A stretch of DNA of 32,575 nt, taken from IMG/VR virus record IMGVR_UViG_2711768076_000008; one strand, given 5' to 3'. Shown here piece after piece: positions 1 through 11,237 of the stretch. This DNA is from a virus (Duplodnaviria; Heunggongvirae; Uroviricota; Caudoviricetes). Position 1 is the first letter of the stretch; every line of letters begins with the position of its first letter. The position numbers and the translations under genes were made by a program. The notes under the pieces were generated by a model. It had not been told where the DNA came from. It searched no databases and saw only the letters and a program-made list of their open reading frames with translations.

Positions 1-118
1 GGGAAATATCCTTTCAGTAAACTGTCAGTGCCGGATGCTCACCCGTGTCCGGCGCAAGCACTCCACCTCACCCGTGGAGAACTCCTTAATTACCAACCTT
101 AGCTTCGTTGGTTAGCTA

Positions 119-337
119 TTAACGCGGGTATGTAATCATTCTGGCAATGGTTAATGCCGCTGCTTTTTCCAGATTGGTGATATCCTGCTCCAGAGAGGAC
201 AGATTTTCAGCCTGCTTAGCCCTGACTTCATTAGCCCATTTCAGATCCTGCGCTGCATTAATTTTCTGGCGCATCCACTCATAAAGTTCATCATCGGTAT
301 AGTCTGGCGCGATGATGACGGGTTCTCGTTTCTGCAT
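119..337 (-). CDS. hypothetical small protein (72 aa)
   Basis: Intact ORF on the same strand as the repressor, in the early-left position; no motif I recognise. Function unknown. Confidence 0.4.
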   Translation of the reverse strand: MQKREPVIIAPDYTDDELYEWMRQKINAAQDLKWANEVRAKQAENLSSLEQDITNLEKAAALTIARMITYPR

Positions 338-423
338 GTCGGCTCCTTGTGGTTAGCGTTGCCTGCTTTTAACCACGTCAGGCGAGGTGGTATCCTCTGA
401 GGGGTCTGTTACTCGAGAGGAAA

Positions 424-630
424 TTGGTTATGAATACAATCAAGTTTTCTTGCCCAGAATGTGGTGGCGAAGTCTTTGACACATCCTTTAAACCGCAGGG
501 CTCTGACAGTTTCGCGGGAGCCATCTGCAAAAATTGTGGTCACCTTGTAACTGAAGATGAGTCCTCGCAGTTTGATGACGAAATCGTTGACAATATCTTC
601 GGTGCACTCACCAGAGACTTTCTGAAGTAA
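424..630 (+). CDS. putative zinc-ribbon protein (68 aa)
   Basis: Two CxxC pairs (CPECGG ... CKNCGH) typical of a zinc ribbon; GAGAGGA-like SD about 7 nt upstream of the ATG. Fully overlapped by an antisense 118-aa ORF (409..765), so the strand assignment is not settled. Confidence 0.4.
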   Translation: MVMNTIKFSCPECGGEVFDTSFKPQGSDSFAGAICKNCGHLVTEDESSQFDDEIVDNIFGALTRDFLK

Positions 631-1061
631 AGGCGCATACCGCTTAGTTACCGCTCTGATAATTCTTACCTGTCCGGCAATGGCGCTGATATCAATATAA
701 AGCGCCATCGCTGTTTCTTTGCTGATCCCTGGACGCCTTCCATTCTGATGTTTGACTTCGCCCACTGAGAAATCCTCTGTTTCCCCTTAACGCCGGGGTA
801 GCGGAACAAAAACCTGCTGCATAGTTATTAAAGTTGAACCCTGCCGTCATGTTCTTACGCCTCGGGCTGGCTACTTAACCCCTGACCACTGCCTGGTAAC
901 TCGAAGTATTGCCCTGCATTCTGTAGGATGGGGTGAGGGAATGAATGAAGTTTAGAAAAACGAACTTTTCAGGTCAATGTTTTTTTATCAAAACATTTTA
1001 AGCAGGCAGCTGTTAAGCCATCACCACGATGGCATACAGTTAATCAAATAGATGAGGTTGG

Positions 1062-1700
1062 TTAAATATCTTGTTGAATTTTAAAGCATACGCCCAATAT
1101 GCAAGATAGATCATCCAGCATAATTGAAGGGTAGCGAGGATTCGTGGGGACTAAAAGAATATCCGGCCCTTCTATCTCCAGTTTACGAATGACAGGTGTT
1201 GTGGTCCCTTTGGGTAAGGCAAGGACAATATTTCCTGGTTGTACGGTTCGATCGGGATCAACAAAAACTGTTGAACCATTTGGGATGGAAACTCCCCCAC
1301 CAGATGTTGACATACTGTCACTCTCTAGAACAACTGCAAAGGTATTGACCGGGATTTCTCCGACAAGCTGCACACAAGAGGTTATTGAGGAATTTTTCAT
1401 ATAATCACTCCAGCTTGCTGCCTGCTGAAGTGATAGTAGCGGAACCGTTTTTATCGGCGGTAAAGATAGATCAAGCGAATCACCTGTATTTAACTCTCCT
1501 CCATTAAGAAGCCAATTTTCGTTTACTTTCAATATTTTTGCCAGTGAACTTATGTAACGCGAGGACGGCGCTCCTCCACCGTTCATCCATTGACTTACGG
1601 AGCCTTTTGATGCGCCAGTGCCATTGACAAGGTCTTTGCCTTTCAGGTTTAGCGCATGCATACGTTGGGTTATGCGTTCAGATATAGTTTGCTTGCTCAT
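1062..1700 (-). CDS. CI-like prophage repressor (HTH N-terminal domain, LexA/S24-type C-terminal domain)
   Basis: 212 aa. N-terminal HTH-like segment (GKDLVNGTGASKGSVSQWMNG) and a C-terminal region resembling the S24 autocleavage fold. Transcribed divergently from the Cro-like gene, as in a lambda immunity region. Confidence 0.8.
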   Translation of the reverse strand: MSKQTISERITQRMHALNLKGKDLVNGTGASKGSVSQWMNGGGAPSSRYISSLAKILKVNENWLLNGGELNTGDSLDLSLPPIKTVPLLSLQQAASWSDYMKNSSITSCVQLVGEIPVNTFAVVLESDSMSTSGGGVSIPNGSTVFVDPDRTVQPGNIVLALPKGTTTPVIRKLEIEGPDILLVPTNPRYPSIMLDDLSCILGVCFKIQQDI

Positions 1701-1791
1701 GTTTTGATTTTAAAACACAGATGGTTTTGTTTCTTGACTTTCTTTGGTTTTGATTATTAAACTTTTGACGTTCAGTTTTATGGAGCGACTC
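1701..1791. promoter_or_regulatory. candidate divergent promoter/operator region between the repressor and Cro-like genes
   Basis: 90-bp AT-rich intergenic region with repeated GTTTTGATT/GGTTTTG motifs (about 1701-1709, 1723-1729, 1747-1755) and a TTGACT -35-like hexamer at 1734-1739. Exact operators and the -10 element are not resolved. Confidence 0.35.
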
Positions 1792-2034
1792 ATGAAAAAA
1801 TCAGAAGTATTAGGCTATTTTGGCGGAGTTGTTAAAACAGCCGCAGCTCTAGGAACGTCAAAAACCACAGTCAGCATGTGGGGGGAAGAGGTTCCGTGGA
1901 AATGGGCGTTGCTAATTCAGGCAGTCACTGCCGGGGCGCTCAAATATGAGTTACACATACCGACGGTTGTCATTCCCGGTTCTGATCATAATCCGCCTTC
2001 TAACCAAGGGGGGATTCATGAAAATCAAGCATGA
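1792..2034 (+). CDS. Cro-like / YdaS-like transcriptional regulator
   Basis: Small ORF (MKKSEVLGYFGG...) divergent from the repressor; the position and my recollection of Rac-prophage YdaS suggest a Cro-type HTH protein. An alternative ATG lies at 1780. Confidence 0.55.
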   Translation: MKKSEVLGYFGGVVKTAAALGTSKTTVSMWGEEVPWKWALLIQAVTAGALKYELHIPTVVIPGSDHNPPSNQGGIHENQA

Positions 2035-2443
2035 ACACATCCGCATGGCGATGAATGCCTGGGCGCATCCGGACGGCGAAAAAGTACCGGCTGCGAAAAT
2101 TACCAAAGCGTATTTCGAGCTGGGAATGACGTTCCCGGAACTGTATGACGACAGCCATCCGGAAGCCCTGGCTCGCAATACCCAGAAAATTTTCCGCTGG
2201 GTGGAGAAAGACACCCCTGATGCAGTTGAAAAAATTCAGGCGTTGTTACCAGCGATCGAAAAGGCAATGCCACCTTTGCTGGTGGCCAGAATGCGCAGCC
2301 ACAGTTCAGCTTATTTTCGGGAGTTGGTGGAGACGCGGGAGCGACTGGTGAGAGACGCTGATGATTTTGTCGCAGTGGCAATCGCCGGTTTCAATCAGAT
2401 GAACCGTGGTGGCCCGGCAGGAAATGCTGTGGCAGTACATTGA
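2018..2443 (+). CDS. YdaT-like protein (CII-position regulator/toxin-domain family)
   Basis: ORF MKIKHEHIRMAMNAWAHPDGEK... overlaps the Cro-like stop and resembles the Rac-prophage YdaT sequence as I recall it. Not verified by search. Confidence 0.55.
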   Translation: MKIKHEHIRMAMNAWAHPDGEKVPAAKITKAYFELGMTFPELYDDSHPEALARNTQKIFRWVEKDTPDAVEKIQALLPAIEKAMPPLLVARMRSHSSAYFRELVETRERLVRDADDFVAVAIAGFNQMNRGGPAGNAVAVH

Positions 2444-2514
2444 CTGACAATAGCCATATCGAATCGCTTCCGGCAACTCGTGAGTAAAAAGATTCGGTAT
2501 CAGAAGAGGTGAGT

Positions 2515-3585
2515 ATGGCTAACGCCTGGCTCAGATTATGGCATGACATGCCAAATGACCCTAAGTGGCGAACAATTGCCAGGGTGTCAGGGCAGCCAAT
2601 TGCAACAGTGATGGCAGTGTATATCCACCTCCTGGTGAGCGCGTCACGAAATGTCACGCGAGGTCACATTGATGTCACGACAGAAGATTTGGCAAGTGCG
2701 CTCGACGTGACAGAAGAGGTAATTGATTCAATTTTGCAGACGATGCAGGGGCGGGTACTTGATGGTGATTTAATCACTGGATGGGAAAAACGCCAGGTGC
2801 TGAAAGAGGACAACGGCAATATTTCGCAAACCGCAAAATCTCCGGCAGAGCGCAAGAGGGCGCAGCGAGAGAGGGAAAGAAAGCGGGAACAAAATGGCGA
2901 TTGTCACGGCGAGTCACGAAATGTCACGCACATGTCACGACGAGTCACGACAGATAAAGATACAGATAAAGATACAGATCAAGAAGATCAAAACACTATG
3001 GTCCATGGCGTAAAAAACGCCACGAACCAGGCAGGGGATGTTCAGACCGTCACTCCTGGCCAGCCCGCAGGCACGACACCGGAAGCCGATTCAGCGTATG
3101 CGCTGAAAGCCGATTCGGGCGCTGTGCAGCAGGTGATGACCGCAAGGCAGGAGCAATCACACCAACTTCAGCAGCCTGAAGCCGATTCCGCCATTCAGCG
3201 GGAAGCCGATCGGGTAGTCCCGGAAAACACCGGGCAGCCTGTGGGACGAGTGGATTATCCTGATGTGTTCGAACAGGTCTGGCGGGAATACCCGTTGCGT
3301 GCCGGGGCAAACCCGAAGAAATCCGCTTTCAGTGCCTGGAAAGCCAGATTACGCGAGGGGGTGCCACCAGAGGCCATGCTGGATGGCGTGAGGCGTTACG
3401 CAAGATACCTTGCGGCTACCGGGAAAACGGGAACGGAATTTGTTCAGCGAGCGACGACGTTTTTTGGACCGGACCGGAATTTTGAAAACCCCTGGCTGCT
3501 CCCGGTAAGCGGCACGAACAACCAGCGTTGTGTGAATCATATTTCTGAACCGGATAACGAAATTCCGCCGGGCTTCAGGGGGTAA
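2515..3585 (+). CDS. putative replication initiation protein (lambda O-like role) containing the origin iterons
   Basis: 356 aa ORF downstream of the cro/cII-like genes. Its coding sequence holds two clusters of GTCACG repeats at about 10-bp spacing plus an A/T-rich direct repeat, the classic layout of an iteron origin inside the initiator gene. SD AGAGG sits 5 nt upstream of the ATG. Confidence 0.6.
   Translation: MANAWLRLWHDMPNDPKWRTIARVSGQPIATVMAVYIHLLVSASRNVTRGHIDVTTEDLASALDVTEEVIDSILQTMQGRVLDGDLITGWEKRQVLKEDNGNISQTAKSPAERKRAQRERERKREQNGDCHGESRNVTHMSRRVTTDKDTDKDTDQEDQNTMVHGVKNATNQAGDVQTVTPGQPAGTTPEADSAYALKADSGAVQQVMTARQEQSHQLQQPEADSAIQREADRVVPENTGQPVGRVDYPDVFEQVWREYPLRAGANPKKSAFSAWKARLREGVPPEAMLDGVRRYARYLAATGKTGTEFVQRATTFFGPDRNFENPWLLPVSGTNNQRCVNHISEPDNEIPPGFRG
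2643..2679. repeat. iteron cluster 1 (4 x GTCACG/GTCACA, about 10-11 bp spacing)
   Basis: GTCACG at 2643, 2653 and 2674, with GTCACA at 2663; read directly from the sequence. Confidence 0.6.
2903..2990. repeat. iteron cluster 2 (5 x GTCACG, 10-11 bp spacing) followed by a tandem ACAGATAAAGAT repeat, A/T-rich: candidate ori
   Basis: GTCACG at 2903, 2913, 2923, 2934 and 2944, then cagataaagatacagataaagatacagatcaagaagatcaaaac. Confidence 0.6.
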
Positions 3586-3625
3586 GTGTTAATTTCTGGT
3601 CATGAGGTAATTTTCAGGAGGGCTT

Positions 3626-4048
3626 GTGGCAAAAGTTTTTACACAAGAAGAGCGAGAAAAAATTAAAGGGCAGGTTGTTGAACTCGTACGCCAGAGTGGG
3701 CGTGAGACGTTACGGCAACTGGAAGTCAAGACAGGTGCGACAAGATATCTGATGAGCGTTCTCGCAAGAGAGCTGGTTGCCAGCGGCGATGTATACAACT
3801 CCGGCTACGGGTTATTCCCCTCTGAACAGGCGCGTAAGGACTGGCAAAACGCCCGCAAAAAACTCTCGAGGGCAAAGGTGAAGAAACCTGCTGTGGTTGA
3901 TCCGGACCTTATCTGGTCATCACCTGACGGAGAAATACGTCGCTACGACAGTCGCCTAAACATAATCTGTCGCGAGTGCCGGAAGAGTGAAGCTATGCAG
4001 CGTGTACTGGCTTTCTATCAGGGGAATTTTCAGGAGGCGGCGCAGTGA
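3626..4048 (+). CDS. hypothetical phage protein (140 aa)
   Basis: GTG start with an AGGAGG SD upstream; basic protein with no motif I recognise. Confidence 0.5.
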   Translation: MAKVFTQEEREKIKGQVVELVRQSGRETLRQLEVKTGATRYLMSVLARELVASGDVYNSGYGLFPSEQARKDWQNARKKLSRAKVKKPAVVDPDLIWSSPDGEIRRYDSRLNIICRECRKSEAMQRVLAFYQGNFQEAAQ

Positions 4049-4245
4049 GCAGGATTGACTACCAGGAATTGGCTGCTGCTAACGCTTTCCTAGCTGATGT
4101 ACGGGCGGTGGCGTTTAACGACCTTTGCGCGGCGTTTGCCAGGCACGCAAAAGTTGCAGGACTGGATGATGCCGATACCGTAACGCTTAAGGAAGTGACA
4201 GAAGCATTGTTGCATTGTGCGGAACAGATTCGCGCGCCTGAATAA
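4045..4245 (+). CDS. hypothetical small protein (66 aa)
   Basis: ORF whose start overlaps the preceding stop (translational coupling). Confidence 0.4.
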   Translation: MSRIDYQELAAANAFLADVRAVAFNDLCAAFARHAKVAGLDDADTVTLKEVTEALLHCAEQIRAPE

Positions 4246-4340
4246 TTAAATTTAGTGTTGTAAATAAAATTTAATCCTTAACCGGAGGGATTTCTGCACC
4301 CTCAGAACATCAGGAGGCCGCCCGAAAGGGCGGTAATGAA

Positions 4341-4523
4341 ATGCGAAAGTTCAGAATAATTATTGAAACGGGAATAGCTGGTGGAGATTTTGAGGATGTA
4401 TTCGAAGTGGATGATGGTGCGACACCAGATGAAATACAGGACGAAGCAAAAGAAATTTTCTTTAACTACTGCAATTACTCATATCACGAAATAAAAGATG
4501 AGGAGGAAGAACAAAATGGCTGA
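4341..4523 (+). CDS. hypothetical small acidic protein (60 aa)
   Basis: ORF rich in D/E; AGGAGG SD at 4312-4317 separated from the ATG by a 6-bp hairpin with a GAAA loop. Confidence 0.45.
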   Translation: MRKFRIIIETGIAGGDFEDVFEVDDGATPDEIQDEAKEIFFNYCNYSYHEIKDEEEEQNG

Positions 4524-4692
4524 TTTTGGTTCAACTAAATACAACGTCAGTTTTGAAGAATGGCATGAACTGTTAATGGACTATGCAGAGTTACGCGGTG
4601 GAAGTGCCGCTGATGCTGAAGCATGGCGTTATGACTACGAAGCAGGAAAAACTCCGGTCGAAGCATATTGTGATGAGTGGGGCGATGAATGA
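4516..4692 (+). CDS. hypothetical small acidic protein (58 aa)
   Basis: Internal ATG at 4516 preceded by GAGGAGGAAG; the track ORF begins at 4498. Confidence 0.45.
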   Translation: MADFGSTKYNVSFEEWHELLMDYAELRGGSAADAEAWRYDYEAGKTPVEAYCDEWGDE

Positions 4693-5204
4693 GCGAGATT
4701 AATTATCAGGAAGGACATGAAACGGCAGGGCAGGCAAAACCAGTTGCATGGCGATATCGCTACGTGAAAAAAGGCATTACGGACTCACAGGGGGAGCCGT
4801 GGGTTGGTGACTGGAAATATGTACCGACAAAAGAGGATTGCAACGACAGGCCGAGCTATGAAATTCAGGCGTTATTCACTGCCCCGCCTGTGCCACTGAC
4901 ATCAGAAGGACTGGTTAAAGCCGTGCGCTTTTATGAACAGGTAAAGCGTGAGAATCCACCAGTCGAAACAGGAGCATGGAAAGATGCTGTTGATTGGGTA
5001 CTCAAAGAGGCCTGCAGTGCTGTCATTCTGGGTAAAGCCGACAACCCACCAGCTTCCGGCAATCAGGTTAGCGAATTAACAATGTGGGTTAAACGACTGG
5101 TCAGCCAACTGAAAAAAGCCAAGCCGGACTGCAAATTACCGGAGAAGGCGATGGACTACCTGAAGCGAAACGGACTGATAAGCGTGGAGGATGTTTTACG
5201 GTGA
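4689..5204 (+). CDS. hypothetical phage protein (171 aa)
   Basis: ATGA overlap with the upstream gene; no motif I recognise. Confidence 0.5.
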   Translation: MSEINYQEGHETAGQAKPVAWRYRYVKKGITDSQGEPWVGDWKYVPTKEDCNDRPSYEIQALFTAPPVPLTSEGLVKAVRFYEQVKRENPPVETGAWKDAVDWVLKEACSAVILGKADNPPASGNQVSELTMWVKRLVSQLKKAKPDCKLPEKAMDYLKRNGLISVEDVLR

Positions 5205-5343
5205 GATAGTAAATGCATGTAATGAGACGGGGGGGGTGAGGGGAGGCTTCATCTGGATAGATCTTGCACCGTTCATATGTTATAAAAACAATTCCTACTG
5301 TTAAATCGTTGTTTGTTTTAGTTGCTATATTTAAGGAGTGAAT

Positions 5344-5601
5344 ATGCAGTTAATTGTTGATTACCCAGATCATAACATTTATTCATCTTTTGTGGATGCG
5401 GATGCTGAACTTCGAGAGTTAAATGGTGGGGCAGTAGTTGTAATAACGGTAAAAATACCTCTTACTAGCACATCGGAACAGTTGTTTAATAAATACACTT
5501 GCGGGGAAAGTCTTCGTATTAAATTGAGGAATGGCGATGAATGGAAAATGTATTTCGTTATGCTTGATGGAGGGCGCTATATATTTTCCTCGCACCTGTG
5601 A
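5344..5601 (+). CDS. hypothetical protein in an AT-rich island (86 aa)
   Basis: AAGGAG SD 5 nt upstream of the ATG; flanked by AT-rich non-coding DNA with lower GC than the surrounding phage genes. Confidence 0.45.
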   Translation: MQLIVDYPDHNIYSSFVDADAELRELNGGAVVVITVKIPLTSTSEQLFNKYTCGESLRIKLRNGDEWKMYFVMLDGGRYIFSSHL

Positions 5602-5697
5602 TAAAAATGATGAGCCGAGACTGTATTTACGGGACGCTGAGAGAATACCATAGAAAAGCTTATCTAACTTAAGTAGAATTGCTGCGGGTGCTTGAGG

Positions 5698-5733
5698 CTA
5701 TCTGCCTCAGGCATGAACACCAAAGGCAGATAG
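5698..5733 (+). promoter_or_regulatory. stable stem-loop in the hok mRNA leader (10-bp perfect stem CTATCTGCCT/AGGCAGATAG)
   Basis: Perfect 10-bp inverted repeat with a 16-nt loop; a mutually exclusive 5-bp hairpin GAGGC/GCCTC (5694-5708) overlaps it. Confidence 0.5.
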
Positions 5734-5854
5734 AGAAAAGCCCCAGTTAACATTACGCGTCCTGCAAGACGCTTAACATTAATCTGAGGCTCAATCTATG
5801 AACGGCAAATCTAGGTTAGCCTCTTACGTGCCGAAAGGCAAGGAGAAGCAGGCT

Positions 5855-6010
5855 ATGAAGCAGCAAAAGGCGATGTTAATCGCCCTGATCGTCATCTGTT
5901 TAACCGTCATAGTGACGGCACTGGTAACGAGGAAAGACCTCTGCGAGGTACGAATCCGAACCGGCCAGACGGAGGTCGCTGTCTTCACAGTCTACGAACC
6001 TGAGGAGTAA
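5855..6010 (+). CDS. hok: Hok/Gef-family type I toxin (51 aa)
   Basis: MKQQKAMLIALIVICLTVIVTALVTRKDLCEVRIRTGQTEVAVFTVYEPEE matches the Hok/Gef fold and is close to the E. coli HokD/RelF sequence as I recall it. AAGGAG SD 9 nt upstream. The in-frame upstream extension (track ORF 5798..6010) is Mok-like. Confidence 0.85.
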   Translation: MKQQKAMLIALIVICLTVIVTALVTRKDLCEVRIRTGQTEVAVFTVYEPEE

Positions 6011-6017
6011 GAGACTT

Positions 6018-6039
6018 GGCGAGGGAGAAATCCCTCGCC
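6018..6039 (+). promoter_or_regulatory. hok 3' stem-loop (9-bp stem, GAAA loop), fold-back-type element
   Basis: GGCGAGGGA-gaaa-TCCCTCGCC immediately after the hok stop codon. Confidence 0.5.
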
Positions 6040-6079
6040 GCCTCTGATGTGTCAGGCATCCTCAACGCACCCGCGCTTA

Positions 6080-6102
6080 ACCCGCTTCGGCGGGTTTATT
6101 TT
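6080..6102 (+). terminator. rho-independent terminator of the hok transcript
   Basis: ACCCGC-TTCG-GCGGGT stem followed by TTTATTTTAT. Confidence 0.7.
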
Positions 6103-6468
6103 ATCTGTAAATATTTTTATAAAAATAATGCCCACACACAGCATAAAACAAAAAGTATCACAGATAAAAAAGGAGCGTAATGTGCAGATTTGTTGTTTTC
6201 CATATTTACTCACTTTAACATAATCAATATTGATATGGTTGTTGTTTCGGTGGTTTCAAACGAGATGTTATGGTGATCTGGTAAAATTGCATAACATTAA
6301 AATTTAATTTATCTAATCGCTTTTAATAATAAGCGTTGTGTTTATCCCAGCAATCTGTTGTTTGACTTTTATTCCATTAATGTAGGGGCTTTACACTGGA
6401 ACCAGTTTATTTATACTTTATACGCCAGCCTGAACAACTGGCACCTGCTGCGCCAGCAGAGACAACCG

Positions 6469-6747
6469 ATGGCGCACGATACCAAATTACACAATTCTGA
6501 TGATTCTGCCGTCTTTGCCAGCAGGCACGGGCGGCGTTCCCGCACTTTCAAATCTGACTGGTTCCAGCATGACCCATGTACTGAAGAACAGGCCGAATGG
6601 CTAATTCATAACTATCGCAGACGCGGATACGAGATTAAGAAAGCCCTCAGCCTCGATTATCGTCACTGGATAATCTATGTCAGGCTCCCTTATTCCGAAC
6701 GCCCACCGCGCCCATCCCGCACATACCAGCAACGGATCTGGAGGTAA
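6469..6747 (+). CDS. hypothetical phage protein (92 aa)
   Basis: ORF ending in TAA immediately before the GTG start of the DUF968 gene (coupled). The start is chosen at the first ATG after a roughly 350-bp AT-rich gap; the track ORF begins at 6358. Confidence 0.4.
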   Translation: MAHDTKLHNSDDSAVFASRHGRRSRTFKSDWFQHDPCTEEQAEWLIHNYRRRGYEIKKALSLDYRHWIIYVRLPYSERPPRPSRTYQQRIWR

Positions 6748-8182: not shown

Positions 8183-8540
8183 TATTCAGATGGTTCTTGA
8201 GCGGTGGGGGGCATGGGCTGCGAGTGATAGCTCTGGGGTAGACTATTCACCTATAGCAGCTGGTTTTAAGGGGCTTATGCCGCAGATAAGTAAAACACGA
8301 ATTTCTTGTACAGACGATGACGCTCTTATCATTGAGAGCTGCCTTGCTTTACTAAAAAAGAAAAAACCGTACGAACATTCTCTGATTGTGGCTCATTACC
8401 TATACGGCATCTCGAAACGGAAGATTGCAAAGGCACGCAAAAAAGATGAGAAATTGATACGGATAGAGATCCAGATGGCAGAGGGCTTTATCGATGGCTG
8501 TCTCTCAATGCTTGATGTTCGTCTCGAGATGGAATTGTGA
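8169..8540 (+). CDS. putative late-gene antiterminator (Q-like)
   Basis: 123 aa ORF directly after rusA, the canonical Q position in lambdoid phages; the sequence style fits small Q-family antiterminators. The family call is from context and recollection only. Confidence 0.5.
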   Translation: MMVRDIQMVLERWGAWAASDSSGVDYSPIAAGFKGLMPQISKTRISCTDDDALIIESCLALLKKKKPYEHSLIVAHYLYGISKRKIAKARKKDEKLIRIEIQMAEGFIDGCLSMLDVRLEMEL

Positions 8541-8556
8541 ACCTCTTGAATATTCT

Positions 8557-8582
8557 AAACGGCCTAAGGGCCGTTTTATTCT
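8557..8582. terminator. bidirectional rho-independent terminator between Q (plus) and the convergent minus-strand operon
   Basis: AAACGGCC-TAAG-GGCCGTTT hairpin with T-rich flanks on both strands; the minus-strand gene's stop codon lies inside the 3' arm. Confidence 0.65.
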
Positions 8583-9007
8583 TCTTTAGTAACTTCAATA
8601 GGTAAAACTTCTACATTCTTACCAATGTTAACAATCTTTCTAACAGTTTCTTCCCGATCAGCAATAAGCTCAGCTTTAAATTTCTCGCTTAGATGAGGGC
8701 TTTTCAGTTGCTCATCAATACCTTTTAAATCTCTCTCAAGGCGATTTCTTAGGGCGGCTTCGGCTGGAGACTCAAGTCCATGTCGATTGATAACATACAA
8801 CATAATGTAGGTTAGCATTGCTGACACTAATGGGGCGAGGGCATACAAAAAAGCTCTCCATTCACTATTAGGGTCAGGCGCCAATAGTGGTACCAATGTA
8901 GTTAGAACTGCGCCAATCCCGCCTGTTGTTAGACCAGAATTACTACTTAAAATGCTTTTTTTATCACCGCTCATTATTTGACTGCCTGTGCGCGGTTGCA
9001 TCATCAA
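8576..9007 (-). CDS. small membrane protein, about 2 TM helices and a charged C-terminal tail (gene 3 of the minus-strand operon)
   Basis: Two hydrophobic helices (GGIGAVLTTLVPLLA; FLYALAPLVSAMLTYIMLYVI) then a K/E-rich tail. Start uncertain (ATG at 9004, 9001 or 8974). AT-rich. Confidence 0.55.
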   Translation of the reverse strand: MMMQPRTGSQIMSGDKKSILSSNSGLTTGGIGAVLTTLVPLLAPDPNSEWRAFLYALAPLVSAMLTYIMLYVINRHGLESPAEAALRNRLERDLKGIDEQLKSPHLSEKFKAELIADREETVRKIVNIGKNVEVLPIEVTKEE

Positions 9008-9227
9008 TTAGCTCAACGATCTTCTTTCCATCTTTAGCATCTAAGTGGATAGTAATCGTTTTTTCAAGCATGCGTTCAGCACTGTAAAACCTTAGTTCTA
9101 CGATTTTTGTAGGAAAAATTTTACGCCACAACAACGCGGAACCAGCATAAACAAAGCGATAGAAGGTCGGGAGACTTACAAGCACCCCCAACCAAAAAAC
9201 GATTTGTAAAAGCTGTTGCTGAATCAT
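8964..9227 (-). CDS. small membrane-anchored protein, 1 N-terminal TM helix (gene 2 of the minus-strand operon)
   Basis: 87 aa; N-terminal hydrophobic segment LLQIVFWLGVLVSLPTFY followed by a soluble domain. AT-rich. Confidence 0.55.
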   Translation of the reverse strand: MIQQQLLQIVFWLGVLVSLPTFYRFVYAGSALLWRKIFPTKIVELRFYSAERMLEKTITIHLDAKDGKKIVELIDDATAHRQSNNER

Positions 9228-9242
9228 TAGTTTCTACCAAAG

Positions 9243-10124
9243 CTAGATCAATTTTTTCCCTTGAATCACGCGATGACGAAGTGCTTTCTTGATAACATAC
9301 TTTTCTGTTTGTCCTCGTGCGGAAGTTGTACGTGTTGTTTCTAGAAGCACAGAAAACATATCTTCACTTGTGATCGTTCCCTCTGCTTGCCTTACTTTAG
9401 CTAAAAACTCATAGTCTGTAAGTAGTACGGAGTGCTCATCTTGGTTGTAGTCCATCCTCCACCCCTTCTCACTATGAAAGTTAACTTGGGTAAATTTTAC
9501 ATTAACCTCTTTTTCTTCAACTGTTTTGGTCAAAAGCGTCCCTCTGGGAAGGGGTTTAATCTCTTCAGTTTGCTCTCCTTCAAGCTTGAGCAAAACTTTA
9601 TCATTCTCATCTACAATTTTAAAAATGGGAGAGTCTTTACCATCTAAAGGAGCCTGAACAACAGAAATCAACGCATCCCGAATTGTTGGCTCAGTTACCA
9701 AGGTTGCAACTGCTGATGAGCATTCAATCTCACCATCTTCAAATTCAAGAACAGCCTTATCTGTTCCTGCTTTTTTGGTAATCGAAACAACTTTTTTTGA
9801 GCCTAATTGTCTTATTAACGATAAAGCGGTGGCATGAGCTGTTGCGCCCACAGTTCCAACAATCCCGATAGTTTGCAGAACGTCAATTGCATGCGGTAGG
9901 AGTTGCACTACAGTATATGCAATACCCACAGATCCTTTCTGGATGGGGGCAGTGACTAAAATTTTTACAGATTTGTTGCCCTCATTTAACAAGCTATCAG
10001 CTTTATTAATAAGAGTTGTCATGGAAAGTATTGATTTACCAAGTGTTTCAGCGTCAATAGCATGCTTTGACAATTCTTTATCATTGGCGTCATAAAACAC
10101 CTTAAAGGAAGTTGACTTCTCCAT
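9243..10124 (-). CDS. hypothetical 293-aa protein (gene 1 of the minus-strand operon), no recognisable domain
   Basis: Long intact ORF with an AAGGA SD 7 nt upstream; AT-rich composition unlike the flanking phage genes. No catalytic or nucleotide-binding motif recognised by eye. Confidence 0.6.
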   Translation of the reverse strand: MEKSTSFKVFYDANDKELSKHAIDAETLGKSILSMTTLINKADSLLNEGNKSVKILVTAPIQKGSVGIAYTVVQLLPHAIDVLQTIGIVGTVGATAHATALSLIRQLGSKKVVSITKKAGTDKAVLEFEDGEIECSSAVATLVTEPTIRDALISVVQAPLDGKDSPIFKIVDENDKVLLKLEGEQTEEIKPLPRGTLLTKTVEEKEVNVKFTQVNFHSEKGWRMDYNQDEHSVLLTDYEFLAKVRQAEGTITSEDMFSVLLETTRTTSARGQTEKYVIKKALRHRVIQGKKLI

Positions 10125-10382
10125 GACGGTCCTTGCTATGCCTCATTGATTAATGCATATCTTGTTGATGGCTAAATTTGTAGAGACTTAATTTACCTAG
10201 AAAAGAAGATAAAATCACTAACGCGGTCCGCATTTTCTTGTTTATTGTGTTAAGAGTGGTCACTTCGGCATACAGCTTAAAACCGCTGCCGTGCGTTTTT
10301 TTGTCGTTTATCTCTGATAATTATGGTGAATGCGCTGGTGGAGGAGGTAAGGGTGATTTTTAACCAGGTGATTTTTGAATGC

Positions 10383-10411
10383 TTGCAACATTGATTTCGT
10401 AACGTTATTAT
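10383..10411 (+). promoter_or_regulatory. candidate sigma70-type promoter upstream of the tRNA cluster (possible late promoter pR' equivalent)
   Basis: TTGCAA (10383-10388), 17-bp spacer, TATTAT (10406-11); the first tRNA begins about 10 nt downstream. Confidence 0.45.
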
Positions 10412-10420
10412 CCTGCGCCC

Positions 10421-10496
10421 GGCCCTTTAGCTCAGTGGTGAGAGCGAGCGACTCATAATCGCCAGGTCGCTGGTTCAAATCCAGCAAGGGCCACCA
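10421..10496 (+). tRNA. tRNA with CAU anticodon (Ile2/lysidine type or Met)
   Basis: 7-bp acceptor stem GGCCCTT/AAGGGCC, perfect T arm (GCTGG-TTCAAAT-CCAGC), anticodon loop CTCATAA, CCA end encoded. Resembles the E. coli ileX-type tRNA as I recall it. Confidence 0.8.
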
Positions 10497-10497
10497 A

Positions 10498-10574
10498 CCG
10501 CCACTAGCTCATCAGGAAAGAGCGTCAACCCTTTAAGTTGAGTGTGCGAGGTTCGAGTCCCCGGTGGCGGTCCA
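10498..10574 (+). tRNA. tRNA-like gene, anticodon ambiguous (loop CCTTTAA reads UUU by position but has C at position 33)
   Basis: Acceptor stem CCGCCAC/GTGGCGG, D stem GCTC/GAGC, anticodon stem TCAAC/GTTGA, T stem with one A-C mismatch, CCA encoded. The arms resemble a tRNA-Arg(UCU) scaffold with an altered loop. Confidence 0.55.
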
Positions 10575-10576
10575 GT

Positions 10577-10652
<76 letters not shown>

Positions 10653-10655
10653 TAT

Positions 10656-10730
<75 letters not shown>

Positions 10731-10936
10731 GTTAGAGTCTTTCAGTCTGCGATGATGGGAAAGCCCGGAGTGACTGAAAGACGTTTGGGTTATGAATGAG
10801 CGTCTTTTTTGCAAAATTGCTGTGCAGGAATAACAACCTTCGGGCAGGCGATCATTCATAAGCACTCTGCTTTTATTCCGATTAACTGTGGGTGGTTTGT
10901 TGGATAGAGTGCTTTCCTGACTGTAGATCCAATTTC

Positions 10937-10961
10937 GCCCGCTTTTGCGGGCTTTTCTTTT
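10937..10961 (+). terminator. rho-independent terminator upstream of the holin (candidate tR'-type late terminator)
   Basis: GCCCGC-TTTT-GCGGGC followed by TTTTCTTTT, about 60 bp before the holin start. Confidence 0.6.
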
Positions 10962-11021
10962 CAAATCCCTTTCATCTCTCAGTGTAAAACTACGCCATCC
11001 GTTATTTGCGGAGGTGAGGCT

Positions 11022-11237
11022 ATGAAATCCATGGACAAAATTTCAACTGGCATTGCCTACGGCACCTCCGCAGGCAGTGCTGGCTACTGGTTTTTACAGT
11101 GGCTTGATCAGGTCAGTCCGTCACAGTGGGCTGCGATTGGTGTGCTGGGGAGTCTGGTTCTGGGCTTCCTGACTTATCTGACAAATCTGTACTTCAAAAT
11201 CAGAGAAGACAAGCGTAAGGCTGCGCGGGGAGAGTAA
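11022..11237 (+). CDS. S: class II holin / pinholin, phage 21 S type, with dual start (Met1 and Met4)
   Basis: [29 protein letters not shown]... matches phage 21 S as I recall it; ATG at 11022 and 11031 gives the antiholin/holin dual-start arrangement. Confidence 0.9.

What the first reader, a model, noticed from the sequence alone, without database searches (positions are those of the whole stretch)
8576..10124. AT-rich three-gene operon on the opposite strand in the Q-to-lysis moron hotspot: candidate undescribed accessory or defence system
Three co-directional, closely packed or overlapping minus-strand ORFs (293 aa soluble; 87 aa with one TM helix; 143 aa with two TM helices and a charged tail) are convergent with the phage late genes. 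Their base composition is visibly more AT-rich than the flanking phage genes, which marks them as a horizontally acquired moron. The slot between Q and the lysis genes is a classic cargo position in lambdoid prophages, for example toxins or porins. I recognise no enzymatic, nucleotide-binding or DNA-binding motif in any of the three. A soluble protein followed by small membrane proteins is the layout of sensor-plus-membrane-effector abortive infection or superinfection exclusion modules, but that is only an analogy.
Basis: partly seen in the sequence, partly recalled or inferred. Interest (0 to 1): 0.85.

Follow-up and report, generated by a model that had tools for sequence, protein, structure and literature searches.

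The report
Prophage gp29-like three-gene defence operon
Three real, co-inherited genes sit backwards between a prophage's late-gene switch and its lysis genes, and their main protein is a distant relative of a mycobacteriophage protein reported to protect lysogens from other phages, so this is most likely an untested E. coli version of a known but mechanistically unsolved anti-phage system.

Summary
Three minus-strand genes (A 293 aa, B 87 aa, C 132 aa) form the most AT-rich 1.5 kb of the window. All three are under purifying selection, and they stay together in every related locus checked.

The cassette is not entirely undescribed. Protein A belongs to PHROG 3243 and NCBIfam NF053583 ("LAPAL", named a putative phage structural protein). 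It also matches the untested PADLOC candidate PDC-S42 and a DefensePredictor "predicted novel defense gene" cluster.

The new result is a remote, full-length homology between A and gp29 of mycobacteriophage MichelleMyBell (hhalign probability 96%, E 4e-9; HMMER E 4e-19). gp29 is the large protein of the gp29/gp30 prophage defence system, described as a toxic protein plus a small membrane protein with unknown mechanism. That system also sits beside a lysis cassette.

The AlphaFold model of A (pLDDT 84) has no whole-chain match in the PDB. It contains one or two OB-like barrels resembling SSB and RPA. B is a one-helix and C a two-helix inner-membrane protein; homology of C to holins is not supported.

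The best reading is a proteobacterial three-gene variant of a gp29/gp30-type abortive-infection system. No phenotype has been tested, so function remains inferred. Interest is moderate.

The parts
9243..10124 (-). Gene A (293 aa): gp29-like / LAPAL / PDC-S42-family protein. It has an N-terminal strand plus a long helix, a hydrophobic Gly/Ala-rich segment (residues 55-104), and then one or two OB-like beta-barrels (about 112-187 and 198-285).
8964..9227 (-). Gene B (87 aa): an N-terminal transmembrane helix (residues about 6-28), a conserved FP-x-[RK] motif, and a cytoplasmic tail of about 50 aa.
   Evidence: ORF. Hydropathy and flanking charges. Detected next to A in 55 of 60 loci, with a B-like ORF read in one of the other five (L056) and the remaining four having a gap of the same size. 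dN/dS 0.12-0.36. No family match except a weak hit to phrog_36230.
8576..8974 (-). Gene C (132 aa from the ATG at 8974; an alternative TTG at 9007 gives 143 aa): two transmembrane helices (about 14-33 and 39-64), a conserved RHGLESP...RDLK motif and a charged helical tail. Predicted N-in/C-in topology. Overlaps B by 11 nt.
   Evidence: Homologues are found only on contigs that also carry A. phrog_35868 (unknown function) matches 22 of 29 members. Holin families match only 4 of 29 (PHROG 565) and 1 of 29 (Pfam) members.
8557..8576 (.). Strong hairpin between the stop codons of Q and C. On the + strand it is followed by a T-tract and looks like an intrinsic terminator for the Q transcript. On the - strand the same hairpin has no U-tract.
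   Evidence: Folding -15.1 and -14.4 kcal/mol, z -3.8 and -4.5, with 0 of 200 shuffles folding as well.
10125..10420 (.). Intergenic region between the start of A and the first tRNA. It holds A's ribosome-binding site (AAGGA, 10130-10134), a conserved non-coding block (10190-10262) and a weak + strand terminator-like hairpin with a T7 run (about 10279-10302). By inference it must contain the cassette's own promoter and the phage late promoter.
   Evidence: Sequence. The block is conserved across 8 loci whose coding regions are saturated at synonymous sites. Window 10201-10309, which overlaps this block, also lies upstream of the holin in Shigella phage SfIV, next to a different reversed cassette. 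It shows no significant RNA fold. The consensus scan found no - strand sigma-70 site.

Best explanation
This is a prophage-borne anti-phage defence operon, a three-gene proteobacterial variant of the mycobacteriophage MichelleMyBell gp29/gp30 type of system.

Shown:
- A is a full-length remote homologue of gp29.
- A, B and C are real genes inherited as one unit.
- B and C have hydropathy typical of small inner-membrane proteins whose soluble parts face the cytoplasm.
- The module sits next to lysis cassettes of unrelated types, in either orientation, and also in a non-phage island.

Inferred mechanism: the operon is transcribed from its own promoter in the lysogen. A is the core sensor-effector. 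It carries one or two OB-like barrels of the SSB/RPA kind and a conserved F216/W222/R223 loop, so it probably binds single-stranded nucleic acid or a phage protein bound to such nucleic acid. B and C tether and restrain A at the inner membrane, in the way gp30 is thought to accompany the toxic gp29. When another phage infects, A is triggered and stops phage replication at the cost of the infected cell (abortive infection), possibly with membrane damage contributed by C.

My estimate is about 0.65 that the cassette is a defence system at all, and about 0.4 for this particular division of labour.
For: Homology to gp29:
- hhalign of the enterobacterial A alignment against MichelleMyBell gp29 gives probability 96.0, E 3.8e-9, over 268 columns (residues 9-288 against 11-295). 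Matching motifs include PA-x-GSF, F..(G)W(R/K), V..ED..F...V and K..V.KV..HR.
- The LAPAL-type alignment against gp29 gives probability 96.9, E 1.3e-10.
- A superfamily HMM scores gp29 at 74.9 bits, E 3.6e-19 with Z set to 1e6. The enterobacterial-only HMM scores 44.9 bits.
- gp29 (310 aa) is followed by an overlapping 67-aa two-helix membrane protein, directly after lysin A and holin and before the integrase.
- The system is described as a toxic gp29 plus a putative membrane gp30 that defends against lytic phages, mechanism unknown (PMC11856565 citing Dedrick 2017).

Other predictors:
- PADLOC PDC-S42, which is a guilt-by-embedding candidate.
- DefensePredictor lists the cluster with representative WP_021526742.1 as a predicted novel defense gene, log-odds 5.78.

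The cassette behaves as an autonomous unit:
- A with C in 60 of 60 loci, correlated divergence and purifying selection.
- The same layout at about 30% identity in Proteus, Photorhabdus and Providencia.
- It sits beside four different holin/endolysin types and in a non-phage island.

A appears to be the core:
- Solitary homologues occur across phyla with no B- or C-like genes downstream.
- Solitary homologues also lie in the lysogeny or moron slots of Lactobacillus phage A2 and Listeria phage vB_LmoS_188, the latter next to a 'putative superinfection immunity protein'.
- Some solitary homologues are adjacent to a type IIG restriction-modification enzyme plus an SNF2 helicase, or to a NERD-UvrD helicase.

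Against: - No experiment exists for this branch of the family. PDC-S42 and the DefensePredictor cluster are untested predictions.
- Identity to gp29 is only about 19%.
- B and C show no detectable homology to gp30 (hhalign probability 0.7).
- What gp29/gp30 does is known to me only through a secondary summary and my own recollection; the primary paper is not in the library.
- The DefensePredictor table labels the cluster a putative novel defense gene. I take this to mean the authors' homology tools found no link to a known defence protein, but I did not read the column headers.
- In Proteus the module lies on the same strand as Q and the lysis genes, directly upstream of the holin. In Photorhabdus it lies directly after the lysis gene, also on that strand. 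A role in the lytic cycle is therefore possible there.
- C is interrupted by an insertion sequence in 22 of the 24 Proteus mirabilis contigs read, so C is dispensable there.
- No promoter for the cassette was found by the consensus scan.
Confidence: 0.4

Rival explanations
1. Rex-like division of labour. A is only a cytoplasmic sensor. B and C, and C especially, form the effector: a pore or ion channel that depolarises the inner membrane when A is activated, as proposed for lambda RexA/RexB and Sbash gp30/gp31.
For: - The layout is a roughly 290-aa cytoplasmic protein plus small membrane proteins, carried by a prophage.
- C has the class II holin architecture: two helices, predicted N-in/C-in topology and a charged tail.
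- B and C are translationally coupled, and their cytoplasmic parts could dock A.
- The Sbash and Rex model is described in PMC6426596.
Against: - A homologues are widespread without any membrane partner, so A must be able to act alone.
- The secondary source describes gp29 as a toxic protein.
- Neither Pfam nor PADLOC returned any Rex or DUF4747 match for A, B or C.
- Holin homology of C is not supported: 1 of 29 members match the Pfam family and 4 of 29 match the PHROG family.
- C is disrupted by an insertion sequence in most P. mirabilis copies.
Confidence: 0.2
2. Superinfection exclusion at the envelope. The membrane-bound complex blocks genome entry of incoming phages and does not kill the cell. 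A's OB-like barrels might capture the incoming DNA end.
For: - All three proteins are predicted to be at, or facing, the inner membrane.
- Small prophage-encoded membrane proteins are classic exclusion factors (established knowledge: P22 SieA, T4 Imm, HK97 gp15).
- A homologue in a Listeria phage lies next to an annotated 'superinfection immunity' gene.
Against: - The soluble domains are predicted to be cytoplasmic, not periplasmic.
- Solitary A homologues lack membrane partners.
- The reported toxicity of gp29 fits abortive infection better than entry blocking.
Confidence: 0.08
3. An accessory to the phage's own lysis or late functions, for example an antiholin or lysis-timing regulator, or a membrane remodelling factor used during the lytic cycle.
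For: - In phages the module always abuts the lysis cassette.
- It is co-directional with the late genes in Proteus, Photorhabdus and the L056 group.
- C is holin-shaped, with weak hits to holin families.
Against: - It sits beside four unrelated holin/endolysin types and in either orientation.
- It also occurs in a Providencia island with no lysis genes.
- Solitary homologues lie next to restriction-modification and helicase genes or on conjugative elements.
- A 293-aa protein with OB-like barrels has no precedent among lysis regulators.
- Here the cassette points away from the late operon.
Confidence: 0.08
4. A non-defence moron. Either an addiction (toxin-antitoxin-like) module that stabilises the prophage, or a lysogenic-conversion function that alters host envelope physiology.
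For: - AT-rich foreign cargo in a classic cargo slot.
- A toxic large protein with small partner proteins resembles toxin-antitoxin logic.
- Another small toxin gene, hokD, lies nearby in the same prophage.
Against: - The homologous gp29/gp30 system is reported to give phage defence.
- Two independent defence predictors flag A.
- Toxin-antitoxin and defence roles are not mutually exclusive, so this rival differs only if no phage phenotype exists.
Confidence: 0.15
5. A is a virion structural protein, as the NCBIfam name 'LAPAL motif-containing putative phage structural protein' suggests.
For: Only the NCBIfam product name.
Against: - It lies outside the structural module and on the opposite strand.
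- It is coupled to two membrane proteins.
- Homologues occur in non-phage islands and next to restriction-modification genes in Patescibacteria.
- PHROG 3243 carries no structural annotation.
- The LAPAL motif itself is absent here: the equivalent segment reads TLGKSIL.
Confidence: 0.02

Closest known systems
Mycobacteriophage MichelleMyBell gp29/gp30 prophage-mediated defence system (DefenseFinder name MMB_gp29_gp30; Dedrick et al. 2017, known to me through PMC11856565 and from memory)
   Same: - A is a full-length remote homologue of gp29 (293 against 310 aa; hhalign probability 96, HMMER up to 75 bits).
- In both, the large protein is followed by overlapping small membrane-protein gene(s).
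- Both are carried by a temperate phage immediately beside the lysis cassette.
   Different: - Identity is only about 19%.
- There are two membrane partners here (B with one helix and a cytoplasmic domain, C with two helices and a long tail) instead of one 67-aa two-helix protein, and no detectable homology between them.
- The host is Gram-negative.
- The position is between Q and the late promoter, on the opposite strand.
- No phenotype has been tested for this branch.
PADLOC PDC-S42 / NCBIfam NF053583 'LAPAL' family / PHROG 3243 / the DefensePredictor cluster represented by WP_021526742.1
   Same: A matches all of them over its full length. They are catalogue entries for the same superfamily, which has 1235 clusters at 50% identity with E up to 1e-3.
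   Different: - All are uncharacterised or untested labels.
- PDC-S42 is defined as a single gene found embedded in BREX, DISARM or type I restriction-modification systems, and its core members lack B and C.
- This protein is a divergent branch: E 5e-26 against 1e-85 to 1e-102 for core members.
- It lacks the literal LAPAL motif.
Lambda RexA/RexB and mycobacteriophage Sbash gp30/gp31 (abortive infection by a soluble activator plus a membrane ion channel)
   Same: A prophage-expressed pair of one soluble protein of roughly 280-300 aa and small polytopic membrane protein(s). The proposed outcome is abortive infection (PMC6426596).
   Different: - RexB and gp31 are single four-helix proteins; here there are one-helix and two-helix proteins.
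- Unlike RexA, A's relatives often occur alone.
Class II holins (for example S21, including the one at 11022-11237 in this window)
   Same: C has two transmembrane helices, predicted N-in/C-in topology, a charged C-terminal tail and a small size, and it lies near lysis genes.
   Different: - Sequence membership failed: Pfam Phage_holin_9 scores 12 bits against a cutoff of 27, in 1 of 29 family members. PHROG 565 matches 4 of 29 members, with a best E of 0.0017.
- C's tail is much longer (about 70 aa).
- C is always coupled to A and B, and the phage already has its own holin.

Membership tests
MMB gp29/gp30-type defence system | The large protein is homologous to MichelleMyBell gp29 | tested here: met
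   [not shown]
MMB gp29/gp30-type defence system | The partner is homologous to gp30 (67 aa, two transmembrane helices) | tested here: not met
   hhalign of the C alignment against gp30 gives probability 0.7. B was not compared with gp30. B and C are small membrane proteins in the same position, but homology is not demonstrable.
MMB gp29/gp30-type defence system | Lysogenically expressed; protects the lysogen against heterotypic phages; the large protein is toxic when expressed alone | not testable with these tools
   Needs cloning, plaque assays and RNA-seq. Only composition, orientation and context argue for independent expression.
MMB gp29/gp30-type defence system | Location in the variable region flanking the lysis cassette of a temperate phage | tested here: met
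   MichelleMyBell genes 29 and 30 lie directly after lysin A, holin and gp28. Here the cassette lies between Q and the tRNA and holin genes.
PADLOC PDC-S42 (untested candidate) | Match to the PDC-S42 HMMs | tested here: met
   PDLC05015 at E 4.9e-26, residues 5-286 against profile 4-291 of 302. This is weaker than core members, which score 1e-85 to 1e-102.
PADLOC PDC-S42 (untested candidate) | A single-gene system, found embedded in or beside BREX, DISARM or type I restriction-modification systems | tested here: not met
   Here it is a three-gene operon in a prophage Q-to-lysis slot. Among distant solitary homologues, 2 of the 7 loci sampled were adjacent to defence genes (type IIG restriction-modification plus SNF2 helicase; NERD-UvrD helicase).
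NCBIfam NF053583 LAPAL_fam | Score above the curated cutoff | tested here: met
   183.2 bits against a cutoff of 60, full length.
NCBIfam NF053583 LAPAL_fam | Presence of the LAPAL motif, and a role as a phage structural protein | tested here: not met
   The motif (DLAPAL in the N-terminal helix of distant members) is replaced by TLGKSIL here. Nothing in context or fold supports a structural role.
Lambda RexAB / Sbash gp30-gp31 | RexA (DUF4747) and RexB domains | tested here: not met
   No Pfam or PADLOC hit for A, B or C at E up to 1 other than those listed.
Holins (class II) | Membership of a holin sequence family | tested here: not met
   Pfam Phage_holin_9 scores 12 bits against a cutoff of 27 and matches 1 of 29 members. 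PHROG 565 matches 4 of 29 members. The family's own PHROG (35868) has unknown function.
Holins (class II) | Two transmembrane helices, N-in/C-in topology, charged C-terminal tail | tested here: met
   Kyte-Doolittle peaks at residues 14-33 and 39-64, a Lys-rich N-terminus and an Arg/Lys-rich segment after the second helix. The topology is inferred from the positive-inside rule, not measured.
OB-fold nucleic-acid-binding domains (SSB/RPA/PriB type) | A five-stranded barrel with a helix between strands 3 and 4, and structural similarity to known OB folds | tested here: inconclusive
   [not shown]

The most novel reading that the evidence does not exclude
gp29, LAPAL, PDC-S42 and PHROG 3243 are one phylum-spanning superfamily of more than 1,200 clusters, ranging from Patescibacteria to Actinobacteria to E. 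coli. Its members would be prophage- and island-borne sensor-effectors built on tandem OB-like barrels that recognise a nucleic-acid signature of phage infection. Different lineages would have bolted on interchangeable small membrane proteins: gp30 in mycobacteriophages, and B plus C in Proteobacteria. On this reading the E. coli cassette is a genetically tractable model in which to solve the unknown mechanism of gp29/gp30.
Probability: 0.3. Interest if true: 0.7.

Novelty: new variant of a known kind. Interest (0 to 1): 0.55.

Why it matters
The gp29/gp30 defence system has been reported only in a mycobacteriophage, and its mechanism is unknown. This work ties gp29 to four separate, uninformative catalogue labels: PHROG 3243, NCBIfam LAPAL 'structural protein', PADLOC PDC-S42 and a DefensePredictor 'novel' cluster. 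It shows that a three-gene version sits in lambdoid prophages of E. coli, Klebsiella, Salmonella, Serratia, Proteus and other genera.

If the E. coli operon protects against phages, three things follow:
- It would give a tractable host in which to find the trigger and the killing mechanism.
- It would correct a misleading product name now being propagated in RefSeq.
- It would add the slot between Q and the late promoter to the list of prophage defence hotspots.

If it does not protect, that would be a useful negative result for two defence-prediction tools.

Tried and rejected
- **Family scans of B and C.** Pfam, NCBIfam and PADLOC gave nothing significant.
- **Holin homology of C.** Scanning 29 family members gave no recurrent holin hit, so this was rejected.
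- **PDB sequence search with the A profile.** No hit below E 0.1.
- **tblastn of A against 50,697 phage records.** No hit. Only distant family members gave hits.
- **Literature searches.** 'PDC-S42', 'LAPAL motif' and the three WP accessions returned nothing. Neither the Brenes & Laub 2025 paper nor Dedrick 2017 is held, so I could not check whether this operon was in the former screen or read the primary description of gp29/gp30.
- **Peptide-motif search of the DefensePredictor supplements**, including sequences of validated systems. No occurrence.
- **Hotspot test.** Related prophages that share the tRNA-proximal sequence carry a different Q (about 229 aa) with no cargo between Q and the tRNAs. 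SfIV carries a different reversed two-gene cassette with no PADLOC or Pfam match. The slot could therefore not be shown to hold known defence genes.
- **Rfam scan of 8300-11100.** Only the four tRNAs were found.
- **The conserved upstream block.** It has no significant RNA fold.
- **Partners of the Vibrio homologue.** The B-like gene aligns only weakly (probability 31) and the C-like gene not at all.
- **Transferring annotation from strain AMSHJX01 to the left 6.5 kb of the window.** Abandoned, because that part is not collinear.
Full report

Yes. The ORF listing finds three co-directional minus-strand ORFs at 9243-10124 (A, 293 aa), 8964-9227 (B, 87 aa) and 8576-9007 (C). GC over 8576-10124 is 0.398 against 0.514 for the window, and no other 1549-bp stretch of the window is as low.

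All three are genuine genes.
- Against relatives, synonymous sites are near saturation (pS 0.52-0.84), while non-synonymous change is 0.06-0.12 in the closest pairs.
- The divergences of A, B and C are correlated across 36 distinct loci (Spearman 0.77-0.80), with B and C evolving faster than A.
- A has an AAGGA ribosome-binding site, and B and C overlap by 11 nt.

- C most likely starts at the ATG at 8974 (132 aa), as in PGAP and as the homologues' N-termini indicate.
- A has a moderately hydrophobic Gly/Ala-rich stretch at residues 55-104, so it is not plainly soluble.
- The cassette is convergent with Q and divergent from the tRNA and lysis genes. The Q and C stop codons are 35 bp apart around a strong hairpin (z -3.8 and -4.5), which on the + strand is followed by a T-tract.
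- There is no room for a late promoter between Q and C. The late promoter must therefore lie in 10125-10420, and the cassette is inserted between Q and its target promoter. This last step is inference.

**2. Context and distribution**

The window is a lambdoid prophage. On the + strand it carries a DUF968 gene, RusA and Q (PF06530). The cassette follows on the - strand. Then come four tRNAs (10421-10730), a class II holin, a DUF1327/YdfR gene and a lysozyme, again on the + strand.

The whole cassette is present in 20 of 5426 complete E. coli genomes. It is annotated either as three hypothetical proteins or as 'LAPAL motif-containing putative phage structural protein' plus two hypotheticals. 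It is absent from 50,697 deposited phage genomes.

Homologues of A at 53-95% identity occur in many genera: Enterobacter, Citrobacter, Klebsiella, Salmonella, Cronobacter, Pantoea, Serratia, Dickeya, Edwardsiella and others.

In all 60 related loci examined, A is followed by a C homologue. A B homologue was detected in 55. A B-like ORF was read in one of the other five (L056), and the remaining four have a gap of the same size. In the enterobacterial prophages inspected, the module lies between Q and the lysis genes on the opposite strand, and it sits beside unrelated lysis cassettes:
- S21-type holin plus lysozyme
- Phage_holin_2 plus lysozyme
- Phage_holin_8 and Phage_holin_3_7 plus a family 19 glycosyl hydrolase.

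A branch at about 30% identity keeps the same three-gene layout but differs in placement:
- In Proteus it is co-directional with the late genes, in the order Q, methyltransferase, A-B-C, holin.
- In Photorhabdus and the L056 group it lies after the spanin gene.
- In Providencia it lies in a non-phage island, next to an AlpA-like regulator and a type VI secretion immunity gene.

C homologues were found only where A is present.

**3. What the catalogues say**

A has no Pfam domain, but it matches several catalogue entries:
- PHROG 3243, unknown function, E 3.9e-57.
- NCBIfam NF053583, 183 bits against a cutoff of 60.
- PADLOC PDC-S42, E 4.9e-26, full length.

PDC systems are 145 untested candidates proposed because they are embedded in BREX, DISARM or type I restriction-modification loci (bioRxiv 10.1101/2024.01.29.577857).

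DefensePredictor (PMC13092281) lists, in its table of 1,041 uncharacterised E. coli clusters, the cluster whose representative is exactly this protein (WP_021526742.1). It is labelled 'predicted novel defense gene', with a mean log-odds of 5.78 against a cutoff of 4. It is not among the 42 validated systems, as far as a peptide-motif search of the supplements can tell.

An exhaustive profile search finds 1235 clusters at 50% identity with E up to 1e-3. Almost all are 285-310 aa long and align over their full length. The distant members carry the eponymous DLAPAL motif and hit the PDC-S42 model at 1e-85 to 1e-102.

In 33 genome loci from Patescibacteria, Desulfobacterota, Burkholderiales, Bacteroidota and Enterobacterales, these distant members have no B- or C-like genes downstream. 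Of the 7 loci whose neighbours I sampled:
- one is adjacent to a type IIG restriction-modification enzyme plus an SNF2 helicase
- one is adjacent to a NERD-UvrD helicase
- one lies in a RecET prophage region
- one lies beside type IV secretion genes.

**4. The key link**

Distant members also occur in deposited temperate phages:
- Lactobacillus phage A2 ORF19, between the endolysin and the integrase.
- Listeria phage vB_LmoS_188 ORF27, between the integrase and a 'putative superinfection immunity protein'.
- An integrated Vibrio element (PQ189332). Its A-like gene carries the depositor's note 'MMB_gp29_gp30__gp29' and is followed by an 83-aa one-helix gene and a 161-aa two-helix gene.

I therefore fetched mycobacteriophage MichelleMyBell (KF986246). 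Its gp29 is 310 aa. It is followed by an overlapping 67-aa two-helix protein, gp30, and both lie directly after lysin A, the holin and gp28, and before the integrase.

The homology tests were:

| Query | Target | Result |
|---|---|---|
| Enterobacterial A alignment (hhalign) | gp29 | probability 96.0, E 3.8e-9, 268 columns, near full length |
| LAPAL-type alignment (hhalign) | gp29 | probability 96.9, E 1.3e-10 |
| Enterobacterial-only HMM | gp29 | 44.9 bits |
| C alignment (hhalign) | gp30 | probability 0.7 |
| B alignment (hhalign) | Vibrio 83-aa gene | probability 31 |
| C alignment (hhalign) | Vibrio 161-aa gene | probability 0.3 |

The A-gp29 alignment includes the family's conserved motifs. 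The membrane partners, by contrast, are not demonstrably related to gp30 or to the Vibrio genes.

MMB gp29/gp30 is described as a toxic protein plus a putative membrane protein that defends against lytic phages, with unknown mechanism (PMC11856565 citing Dedrick et al. 2017). I could not read the primary paper.

**5. Anatomy of the proteins**

With 47 sequences, AlphaFold gives A a mean pLDDT of 83.8 and a pTM of 0.72. The predicted parts are:
- An N-terminal strand and a long helix. This region holds the conserved Y11, D12, H21 and D24.
- A hydrophobic insertion with a disordered Gly/Ala-rich loop (residues 87-99).
- Two units with the strand/helix order of an OB fold (112-187 and 198-285).

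The invariant Q213, N215, F216, G221 and W222, with the nearly invariant R223, lie between the first two strands of the C-terminal unit. gp29 has an aligned F, W and R there. Placing this loop on a binding face is inference.

B has one transmembrane helix followed by positive charges and a tail of about 50 aa. C has two helices, a Lys-rich N-terminus and a tail of about 70 aa. By the positive-inside rule, both tails face the cytoplasm, where A is.

**6. Mechanism**

I commit to a defence operon of the gp29/gp30 kind, with a probability of about 0.65 that it is a defence system at all. Within that, I favour A as the core sensor-effector and B and C as membrane tethers or regulators (about 0.4). 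The reasons are that A-like proteins are widespread on their own, that the secondary source describes gp29 as a toxic protein, and that the membrane partners are not conserved between lineages.

The main rival is a Rex- or Sbash-like arrangement in which A activates a B/C channel (0.2; PMC6426596). Less likely readings are:
- entry exclusion at the envelope
- an accessory role in the phage's own lysis, which is argued against by the unrelated lysis cassettes, both orientations and the non-phage island
- a non-defence moron
- the NCBIfam 'structural protein' label, which nothing supports.

**7. Novelty and score**

The family was already flagged by two predictors and catalogued under three labels, and its distant relative gp29/gp30 is a named defence system. 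The finding is therefore not categorically new. What is new here is:
- the demonstrated link between those labels and gp29
- the conserved three-gene proteobacterial architecture
- the position of the cassette between Q and the late promoter
- the OB-like fold prediction.

I rate it a new variant of a known kind, with interest 0.55. It is a good and tractable candidate, but one of about a thousand predicted E. coli candidates, and it has no phenotype yet.

Noticed in passing
window 10190-10262 (with 10279-10302): A non-coding block just upstream of gene A (ACCACTCTTAACAC ... TGCGGACCGCGTTAGTGATTT ... GTAAATT on the minus strand) is conserved across eight loci whose coding regions are saturated at synonymous sites. 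Window 10201-10309, which overlaps this block, also lies upstream of the holin of Shigella phage SfIV, beside a different reversed two-gene cassette (gp49/gp48, no family match). It has no significant RNA fold. It is followed on the + strand by a weak hairpin plus a T7 run. It may be the Q-dependent late promoter and leader, or a divergent promoter-operator region.
   Followed up: partly
L061:8140-9360 compared with L062:8133-8522 (Proteus mirabilis prophage): In 22 of the 24 P. mirabilis contigs read, an insertion-sequence transposase (369 aa, rve domain) is inserted about 13 codons into the C homologue, leaving A and B intact. This is either clonal spread or selection against C.
   Followed up: partly
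window 10421-10730: Four tRNA genes lie between the cassette and the holin. ARAGORN calls the first one Met (anticodon CAT) and PGAP calls it Ile, so it is presumably a lysidine-type tRNA-Ile2. The others are Lys(TTT), Thr(TGT) and Gly(TCC). Related prophages carry Ile-Arg-Arg or Ile-Thr-Gly sets at the same place, directly downstream of a different Q.
   Followed up: partly
window 5855-6010: A hokD-type type I toxin gene (MKQQKAMLIALIVICLTVIV...) lies in another AT-rich dip (GC 0.33-0.36 at about 6050-6500), upstream of the DUF968 gene. It is a second small membrane-toxin cargo in the same prophage.
   Followed up: no
window 1-6500 compared with 6500-32575: The window is mosaic. From about 6.5 kb onward it is collinear with E. 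coli AMSHJX01. The left 6.5 kb (ydfC, a LexA-like repressor, Cro/CI, YdaT and replication genes) instead matches other strains at 99.7%.
   Followed up: partly
L108:3971-5575 (Vibrio element PQ189332, classed in Vinavirales): An integrated Vibrio element classed with non-tailed viruses carries an A-like gene (depositor's note MMB_gp29_gp30__gp29), followed by a one-helix 83-aa gene and a two-helix 161-aa gene, next to its integrase. The layout is the same as A-B-C, outside Enterobacterales and outside tailed phages. Partner homology is weak for the first gene (probability 31) and absent for the second.
   Followed up: partly
L100:969-2391 (Shigella phage SfIV gp48/gp49): A different reversed two-gene cassette (356 aa and 108 aa, with no Pfam or PADLOC match) occupies the equivalent slot immediately upstream of the shared non-coding block and the holin. 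This is another uncharacterised cargo at this position.
   Followed up: partly
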